Source: Escherichia coli
GTDB lineage: Bacteria; Pseudomonadota; Gammaproteobacteria; Enterobacterales; Enterobacteriaceae
Strand: one strand, 5' to 3'
Assembly: GCF_003334355.1 (NCBI RefSeq)
Contig: NZ_QOWP01000055.1
Length of the DNA stretch: 10,891 nucleotides
A program made the position numbers and the translations under genes. This document shows positions 8,016 through 8,177 of the stretch, in pieces. The notes below the pieces were generated by a model. It searched no databases and was not told the origin of the DNA. It saw nothing but the letters and a program-made list of their open reading frames with translations. Positions within the stretch are counted from its first letter, which is position 1. Each line of letters begins with the position of its first letter.

Positions 8016-8177
8016 ATGTCTGAAAAAAACAAACCACAAGGTGAAAATAAACCTCAGCAACCCGTGGCACCAAAACCAACTCCAACACAAAGTACTACAG
8101 ACTTTGCTACACGTCGTGTTTTTGTTGGAGATTCTGCCGACTCAGTCATTGAACATATAAAAAAACAGCCGAGATAA
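8016..8177 (+). CDS. Small hypothetical protein (53 aa), Pro/Lys/Gln-rich N-terminus, convergent with the membrane-protein gene
   Basis: ATG 8016..8018 preceded by AAGAGGA about 5 nt upstream; MSEKNKPQGENKPQQPVAPKPTPTQSTTDFATRRVFVGDSADSVIEHIKKQPR; stop TAA at 8175..8177. The listed 130-aa ORF is an upstream extension without an RBS. Its last 32 nt overlap the 3' end of the 8146..8715 gene on the other strand. Confidence 0.4.
   Translation: MSEKNKPQGENKPQQPVAPKPTPTQSTTDFATRRVFVGDSADSVIEHIKKQPR

What the first reader, a model, noticed from the sequence alone, without database searches (positions are those of the whole stretch)
8016..8177. Small plus-strand ORF with a strong RBS, convergent with and overlapping the 3' end of the membrane moron
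A 53-aa ORF on the opposite strand from everything around it has a near-consensus Shine-Dalgarno (AAGAGGA, about 5 nt spacing) and encodes a Pro/Lys/Gln-rich, probably disordered N-terminus with a short structured-looking C-terminus. Its last 32 nt overlap the end of the 189-aa membrane-protein gene tail to tail, so the two transcripts would be mutually antisense at their 3' ends. It also sits on the antisense strand of the Q-dependent late transcript path. This could be a real small protein (small proteins are common in Rac/Qin-type prophages) or a cis-antisense regulator of the moron.
Basis: seen in the sequence. Interest (0 to 1): 0.45.

Follow-up and report, generated by a model that had tools for sequence, protein, structure and literature searches.

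The report
Conserved micro-protein partner of prophage membrane protein
The 53-codon reading frame is a real, evolutionarily conserved small-protein gene that always travels tail-to-tail with a pore-former-like (SLATT-fold) membrane protein gene in temperate phages, forming an uncharacterised two-gene module that probably controls a potentially lethal membrane protein.

Summary
In detail: ATG 8016 to TAA 8177, 53 aa, AAGAGGA 5 nt upstream, 32-nt tail overlap with the 189-aa gene (8146-8715, minus strand).

It is a real gene. Essentially every relative of the 189-aa gene carries the same convergent small ORF: 90 of 94 fetched loci, down to 49% identity. So do 10 of 10 remote relatives (16-32% identity) with enough flanking DNA. 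Each has a Shine-Dalgarno and the frame is kept through 3n indels. dN/dS is 0.28, against 1.1 and 1.4 in the shifted frames.

The conserved start is ATG 8016, not the GTG at 7962 that RefSeq uses.

The gene has its own signals:
- A portable upstream box (7967-7995, extended -10-like TGATATCGT) also heads unrelated reverse-oriented cargo genes.
- A covarying 3' stem-loop (8192-8220) lies inside the partner's coding sequence.

The partner's terminator (7922-7901) lies beyond the small gene, so the two mRNAs would be antisense across the whole small gene.

The partner has a SLATT-like fold, the fold of predicted pore-forming conflict effectors. AlphaFold, at low confidence, pairs the small protein's conserved motif with the partner's segment just after TM2.

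The best reading is an antitoxin-like or regulatory micro-protein of a membrane effector. No function was tested.

The parts
8016..8177 (+). Gene for the 53-aa small protein. It has a disordered Pro/Gln/Lys-rich N-terminus, the conserved motif DFATRRVFVGDSAD (residues 29-42) and a basic tail.
   Evidence: ORF confirmed. Conserved in 90/94 homologous loci and in 10/10 remote relatives. dN/dS 0.28. Matches PHROG 14506 at E 6e-33. 55 database clusters, all named 'hypothetical'.
8004..8010 (+). Shine-Dalgarno sequence AAGAGGA, 5 nt before the ATG
   Evidence: An SD-like motif is present before the ATG in all 41 distinct family members.
7963..7995 (+). Conserved upstream box TGTTTGATATCGTTAAATCGCCAAAAGTAACAA. 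It contains an extended -10-like TGATATCGT (7967-7975) and is the putative promoter/5' UTR of the small gene.
   Evidence: Conserved at the nucleotide level across diverged cassettes, but not in frame with the ORF. It is the most consistent plus-strand promoter candidate: 20/39 sequences have their top hit in the same alignment column. The same box, about 30 nt before an SD+ATG, heads at least 5 unrelated plus-strand genes. The strict sigma-70 consensus scan found nothing here.
7932..7950 (.). Conserved inverted repeat GCCAGA-ttaagct-TCTGGC between the terminator and the box. Its role is unknown; its 3' arm supplies the weak -35-like CTGGCG.
   Evidence: Seen in the upstream alignment of most cassettes, with alternative stems such as GCCGC/GCGGC. 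Not tested formally.
7901..7922 (-). Intrinsic terminator on the minus strand (GGCCCCGG-catgtc-CCGGGGCT followed by TTTTT). It would end the 189-aa gene's transcript about 225 nt beyond that gene's stop codon, after crossing the whole small gene in antisense.
   Evidence: Terminator scan. An A-run plus GC hairpin is conserved at this position in nearly all cassettes.
8192..8220 (+). Stem-loop GGAGCAAGGAT-ggtatac-ATCCTTGCTTT, 15 nt after the small gene's stop and inside codons about 166-176 of the 189-aa gene. It is the putative 3' end / stabiliser (a weak terminator) of the small mRNA.
   Evidence: Present in every locus. 96.1% of cells are paired against 46-55% for slid controls. 4 pairs and 40 cells show compensatory changes. 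0/500 shuffles reach the covariation score. The two Arg codons in it are always AGR (57/57) and the Leu codon always CTY. Pairing is 370/385 on the plus strand against 299/385 on the minus strand. The U-tract is poor (2-5 T in 10 nt; one locus has 7).
8146..8715 (-). Partner gene: a 189-aa inner-membrane protein made of three long helices, with a SLATT-like fold
   Evidence: ORF. PHROG 11870 at E 6e-108, function unknown. More than 100 clusters across Enterobacterales, nearly all 189 aa, and 99 representatives at 50% identity. AF2 pLDDT about 85-90. Foldseek afdb50 hits annotated SLATT proteins at E about 2e-5, TM-target 0.82-0.91. No Pfam, NCBIfam or PADLOC hit.
8744..8752 (-). Extended -10-like TGGTAAAAT, 28 nt upstream of the 189-aa gene's ATG. 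It is the putative own promoter of the membrane-protein gene.
   Evidence: 'cattcagGTAAAAT' is the only strongly conserved block upstream of the gene across cassettes that sit behind different Q genes. Coordinates verified.
8831..8856 (-). tR'-like intrinsic terminator downstream of the Q-like gene. The 189-aa gene and the antisense side of the small gene therefore lie on the Q-dependent read-through path.
   Evidence: Terminator scan. The Q-like protein matches PHROG 753 at E 1.8e-79.
8023..8029 (+). A7 run just after the start codon. It is the site of a frameshift variant of the small ORF.
   Evidence: L024 and L152 carry a frameshift here (MSEKTSHKMKIN...). Coordinates verified.
8159..8165 (+). 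A7 run in the overlap. A 1-nt deletion here changes the C-termini of both proteins.
   Evidence: L005 and hits H70-H75: the small ORF is extended to 80 aa (P0005) and the partner becomes 190 aa.

Best explanation
8016-8177 is a genuine gene for a 53-aa hydrophilic, largely disordered cytoplasmic micro-protein. It is the obligate partner of the convergent 189-aa SLATT-like inner-membrane protein. Together they form a mobile two-gene prophage cargo module (a moron).

Shown by comparison:
- The two genes are always together, tail to tail and overlapping.
- The small ORF is under purifying selection as a protein.
- It has a conserved SD.
- It has a portable upstream box.
- It has a 3' stem-loop selected at the RNA level inside the partner's coding sequence.

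Inferred from the geometry:
- The partner's mRNA starts either at its own -10-like element (8752-8744) or as Q-dependent read-through from upstream.
- It ends only at the terminator at 7922-7901.
- The two mRNAs are therefore complementary over the whole small gene, and the two promoters face each other.

Proposed mechanism (inferred, not shown):
- In the lysogen the micro-protein is made. In distant relatives its gene sits directly behind the prophage repressor gene.
- It docks through its conserved DF-x3-R-x2-VGDSA(D/E) motif as an added beta-strand onto the cytoplasmic segment just after TM2 of the membrane protein.
- This holds a potential pore-former inactive, in the manner of an antitoxin or immunity protein.
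- Strong transcription through the membrane-protein gene silences the small gene by convergent transcription and antisense pairing. Here that transcription is late, Q-dependent read-through; in the relatives the equivalent event is collapse of the repressor operon.
- The membrane protein is then released to act on the membrane.
For: Real gene:
- The frame is intact in 90/94 loci that carry a relative of the 189-aa gene.
- There are 41 distinct proteins with 3n indels only.
- dN/dS is 0.28 in frame against 1.10 and 1.43 in the shifted frames. There are 0 stops in frame against 28 and 132. Codon-position entropy is 1.00/0.75/1.46.
- An SD precedes the ATG in 41/41.
- The start at ATG 8016 is supported because the upstream extension is out of frame or stopped in L002, L006, L050 and L052.

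Obligate partnership:
- Relatives at 16-32% identity of the membrane protein sit in other prophage slots: next to a cI-like S24 repressor, next to an Arc/Mnt-like RHH, next to YdaS/YdaT, or inside tail genes.
- All of them have a convergent, overlapping, SD-preceded, hydrophilic small ORF of 30-53 aa, most Pro/Lys/Ser-rich (one is acidic), in 10/10 contexts with enough flank.

Own expression signals:
- The box plus SD is shared with at least 5 unrelated plus-strand cargo genes at a fixed spacing.
- The extended -10 candidate is consistent across loci.
- The 3' hairpin shows covariation and forced rare AGR codons, and pairs better on the plus strand.

Effector-like partner:
- Foldseek matches annotated SLATT, Pycsar-effector and holin-family proteins.
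- SLATT proteins are predicted pore-forming effectors of conflict systems (PMC9226505).

Contact:
- Two AF2 runs were made on paired alignments, with the partners fused in opposite orders.
- Each predicts the same single two-stranded sheet, between small-protein residues 35-38 (VFVG) and partner residues 96-100.
Against: - No expression data of any kind were available.
- The sigma-70 consensus scan finds no promoter in 7700-9000, and the proposed -10 (TATCGT) is weak.
- The 3' hairpin lacks a proper U-tract, so termination there is uncertain.
- The AF2 contact has low confidence: pLDDT is about 65 and about 55 for the motif. The tool reports no PAE or contact output.
- The direction of regulation (inhibitor or activator) is not addressed by any result.
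- Genomes exist with a frameshifted small ORF beside an intact partner (L024/L152). That argues against a strictly essential antitoxin, unless these are sequencing errors in an A7 run.
- SLATT membership fails at the sequence level.
- Neither PADLOC nor NCBIfam recognises either protein.
Confidence: 0.5

Rival explanations
1. The micro-protein is a positive partner of the SLATT-like effector, not its inhibitor. It would act as a sensor, adaptor or trigger-receiver in an abortive-infection or superinfection-exclusion module expressed from the prophage. One version is a labile or modifiable bait whose state after infection opens the effector.
For: The evidence for co-occurrence, selection and predicted contact is the same as for the main explanation. 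Known SLATT effectors are switched on by a partner-generated signal (PMC9226505; DRT10 preprint abstract). In remote relatives the small gene sits behind the prophage repressor, which fits expression in lysogens together with the effector.
Against: A disordered peptide of about 50 aa has no recognisable sensing or enzymatic domain. The convergent, mutually interfering layout suits anti-correlated rather than co-ordinated expression. There is no PADLOC hit.
Confidence: 0.2
2. The pair is a lysis-timing device of the phage. The membrane protein would be a holin-like or antiholin-like factor, with the micro-protein as its modulator, acting together with the adjacent holin/endolysin/spanin cassette.
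For: In the window and in most Enterobacterial relatives the module sits immediately upstream of the holin gene, on the Q-dependent late transcript. Foldseek also hits 'phage holin family' and 'Holin-X' proteins at E 1e-4 to 5e-3.
Against: The module is combined with at least three unrelated holin types. In remote relatives it lies next to repressor genes or among tail genes, far from any lysis cassette. In related prophages the same slot holds unrelated cargo. That is moron behaviour, not core-lysis behaviour.
Confidence: 0.12
3. The plus-strand transcript acts mainly as a cis-antisense RNA controlling the 189-aa gene. The mechanism would be transcriptional interference or RNase III cleavage of the duplex, and the encoded peptide would be secondary.
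For: The geometry gives complementarity of about 240 nt, using the terminator at 7922-7901 and the hairpin at 8192-8220. The convergent, overlapping layout is conserved even where the sequences have diverged beyond recognition. The hairpin is selected at the RNA level.
Against: An RNA-only function does not predict purifying selection on the amino-acid sequence, a conserved ATG and SD, 3n-only indels or a conserved peptide motif. This rival can coexist with the main explanation and is partly contained in it.
Confidence: 0.1
4. The ORF is a chance open frame in the 3' UTR of the moron and is not translated.
For: A single 53-codon ORF has a probability of about 0.08 by chance. No expression data exist. 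The phage GenBank records that hold this cassette list a single gene under the whole 913-bp match, so their annotators did not call the small ORF.
Against: All the comparative evidence speaks against it.
Confidence: 0.04

Closest known systems
SLATT / PycTM membrane effectors of conflict systems (CBASS, Pycsar, DRT10/UG17, RADAR accessory)
   Same: The partner protein has the same size (about 160-200 aa) and the same predicted architecture: an N-terminal helix running into TM1, then TM2, then a long C-terminal helix. Foldseek gives E about 2e-5 and TM-target 0.82-0.91 to annotated SLATT proteins. Like them it is carried by mobile elements.
   Different: Pfam SLATT and PycTM models give no significant match. 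No cyclase, CD-NTase, SLOG or reverse-transcriptase gene is adjacent. The only constant neighbour is a convergent micro-protein of about 50 aa, a pairing not described in the SLATT papers read here.
Type I toxin-antitoxin loci with convergent 3'-overlapping transcripts in prophage-like elements (txpA/RatA, bsrG/SR4 of Bacillus subtilis; cited from my own knowledge)
   Same: The pair is convergent and tail-overlapping. One product is a membrane protein. The location is a prophage. The opposing transcript is predicted to be antisense to the membrane protein's mRNA.
   Different: The membrane protein here is 189 aa, not a peptide of under 60 aa. The opposing gene encodes a protein under purifying selection rather than a non-coding RNA.
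Prophage exclusion / abortive-infection membrane proteins expressed in lysogens (lambda RexA-RexB, P22 SieA/SieB, HK97 gp15; cited from my own knowledge)
   Same: It is prophage cargo encoding an inner-membrane protein. In remote relatives the module sits beside the repressor gene, as rexAB does. It is also two-component.
   Different: No sequence or profile similarity was found. The partner is a micro-protein rather than a RexA-sized sensor. The genes converge and are not co-transcribed.
Reverse-oriented morons between Q and the holin of lambdoid prophages (for example nmpC/lc in DLP12/PA-2; cited from my own knowledge)
   Same: The slot and the orientation of the small gene are the same. The module has its own -10-like elements and a terminator.
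   Different: This module contains two genes facing each other. The reverse-oriented one is a micro-protein driven from a box shared with several other cargo genes.

Membership tests
Small-protein family PHROG 14506 (function unknown) | Significant match to the family profile | tested here: met
   E 6.3e-33 over residues 1-53. The profile is 71 long because its members were called from the upstream GTG.
SLATT superfamily (partner protein) | About 160-200 aa with 2-3 TM helices flanked by N- and C-terminal helices | tested here: met
   AF2 model: helices 14-62, 68-92 and 134-189, pLDDT about 85-90. Description of SLATT from PMC9226505.
SLATT superfamily (partner protein) | Significant match to a Pfam SLATT_1-6 or PycTM model | tested here: not met
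   The window protein has no Pfam hit even at E<=10. Among 30 remote relatives the best values are SLATT_3 at E 0.3 and PycTM at E 0.047. A precomputed PycTM label on P0186 was not reproduced at significance.
SLATT superfamily (partner protein) | Structural similarity to annotated SLATT proteins | tested here: met
SLATT superfamily (partner protein) | Genomic association with a nucleotide-signal or cDNA-generating enzyme (SMODS/CD-NTase, SLOG, cyclase, RT) | tested here: not met
   The neighbours are Q-like and holin genes in the window. In relatives they are repressor, Cro/YdaS, AntA or tail genes.
Pycsar system | Adjacent pyrimidine cyclase (PycC) gene | tested here: not met
   There is no cyclase in the window or in any fetched locus. 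PADLOC gives no hit.
Type I toxin-antitoxin | The toxin is a small hydrophobic peptide (under about 60 aa) | tested here: not met
   The membrane protein is 189 aa, a length conserved across the family.
Type I toxin-antitoxin | The antitoxin is a non-coding antisense RNA | tested here: not met
   The opposing transcript carries an ORF under purifying selection with a conserved SD and ATG.
Type I toxin-antitoxin | Convergent or overlapping transcription giving RNA-RNA complementarity | tested here: inconclusive
   The geometry predicts it, from the terminator at 7922-7901 and the hairpin at 8192-8220. No transcript data exist.
Type II toxin-antitoxin | Co-directional bicistronic operon | tested here: not met
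   The genes converge and overlap tail to tail in every locus.
Type II toxin-antitoxin | A protein antitoxin binds and neutralises the toxin | tested here: inconclusive
   AF2 predicts the same beta-strand pairing in two fusion topologies, but at pLDDT about 55-65. Toxicity and neutralisation cannot be tested with these tools.
Moron (extra phage cargo unit with its own promoter and terminator) | Present between conserved phage genes and absent or replaced in close relatives | tested here: met
   Related prophages carry divergent alleles or unrelated cargo in the same slot, behind the same box.
Moron (extra phage cargo unit with its own promoter and terminator) | Own promoter(s) | tested here: inconclusive
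   Conserved -10-like elements exist for both genes. The strict consensus scan is negative and no TSS data exist.
Moron (extra phage cargo unit with its own promoter and terminator) | Own terminator | tested here: met
   A minus-strand terminator lies at 7922-7901 and is conserved in the cassettes.
Holin / antiholin pair | Constant linkage to a lysis cassette | tested here: not met
   The module is linked to a holin in the window, but to repressor or tail genes in remote relatives. It is combined with unrelated holin types.

The most novel reading that the evidence does not exclude
The module would be a previously unrecognised class of prophage conflict system. It pairs a stand-alone SLATT-like pore-forming effector with a disordered micro-protein of about 50 aa encoded on the opposite strand, overlapping the effector's 3' end. 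The lysogenic or lytic transcriptional state of the prophage would be read out by convergent transcription. The micro-protein is made while the prophage is quiescent or the repressor operon is on. It is extinguished when strong transcription crosses it. That release triggers membrane permeabilisation, which could serve abortive infection, exclusion or lysis assistance. In effect this is a protein-plus-antisense hybrid between type I and type II toxin-antitoxin logic.
Probability: 0.3. Interest if true: 0.75.

Novelty: new variant of a known kind. Interest (0 to 1): 0.6.

Why it matters
- It adds a well-supported member to the under-annotated world of bacterial and phage micro-proteins. It also corrects the start codon used in RefSeq.
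- It defines a widespread two-gene unit in temperate phages of Enterobacterales and, on the Foldseek and phage-record matches, of Pasteurellaceae, Gilliamella and Oxalobacter. The unit's larger member looks like the pore-forming effectors of CBASS, Pycsar and DRT systems, yet it has no signal-generating enzyme. If a 50-aa peptide controls such an effector, that would be a new and very compact way of regulating a membrane suicide or exclusion protein.
- It gives a clean case of RNA-level selection inside a coding sequence: a hairpin that forces rare AGR codons and serves a gene on the opposite strand.
- It reveals a portable reverse-oriented promoter/5' UTR box that many different cargo genes use upstream of lambdoid holin genes.

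Tried and rejected
- Domain and family searches. Pfam, NCBIfam and PADLOC gave nothing for either protein. PHROGs returned only 'unknown function' families.
- Rfam over 7400-9700 gave only a chance-level hit.
- The sigma-70 consensus scan found no promoter on either strand in 7700-9000. Promoter claims therefore rest on conservation only.
- The phage GenBank collection holds only four near-identical induced E. coli prophages and one Actinobacillus phage.
- Literature searches by protein accession and PHROG number found 0 papers. 'SLATT + prophage + toxin-antitoxin' returned mostly author-name noise.
- The precomputed PycTM Pfam label on relative P0186 was not reproduced at significance (E 0.047). 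I therefore treat it as a lead only.
- PGAP's 71-aa version from GTG 7962 is rejected, for three reasons. The upstream stretch is conserved as DNA but falls out of frame or is stopped in L002, L006, L050 and L052. The SD abuts ATG 8016. Unrelated genes start at the same spacing after the box.
- The 130-aa TTG-started ORF at 7785-8177 listed by the ORF finder is rejected for the same reason.
- I first read hits H86-H92 as 'moron-less relatives'. That was wrong: H87 carries a divergent allele of the same module and H92 carries different cargo.
- A search for a model-strain copy with public Ribo-seq found none. Only the L004 allele (720 nt) was tried, and it occurs in just 6 non-model E. coli genomes.
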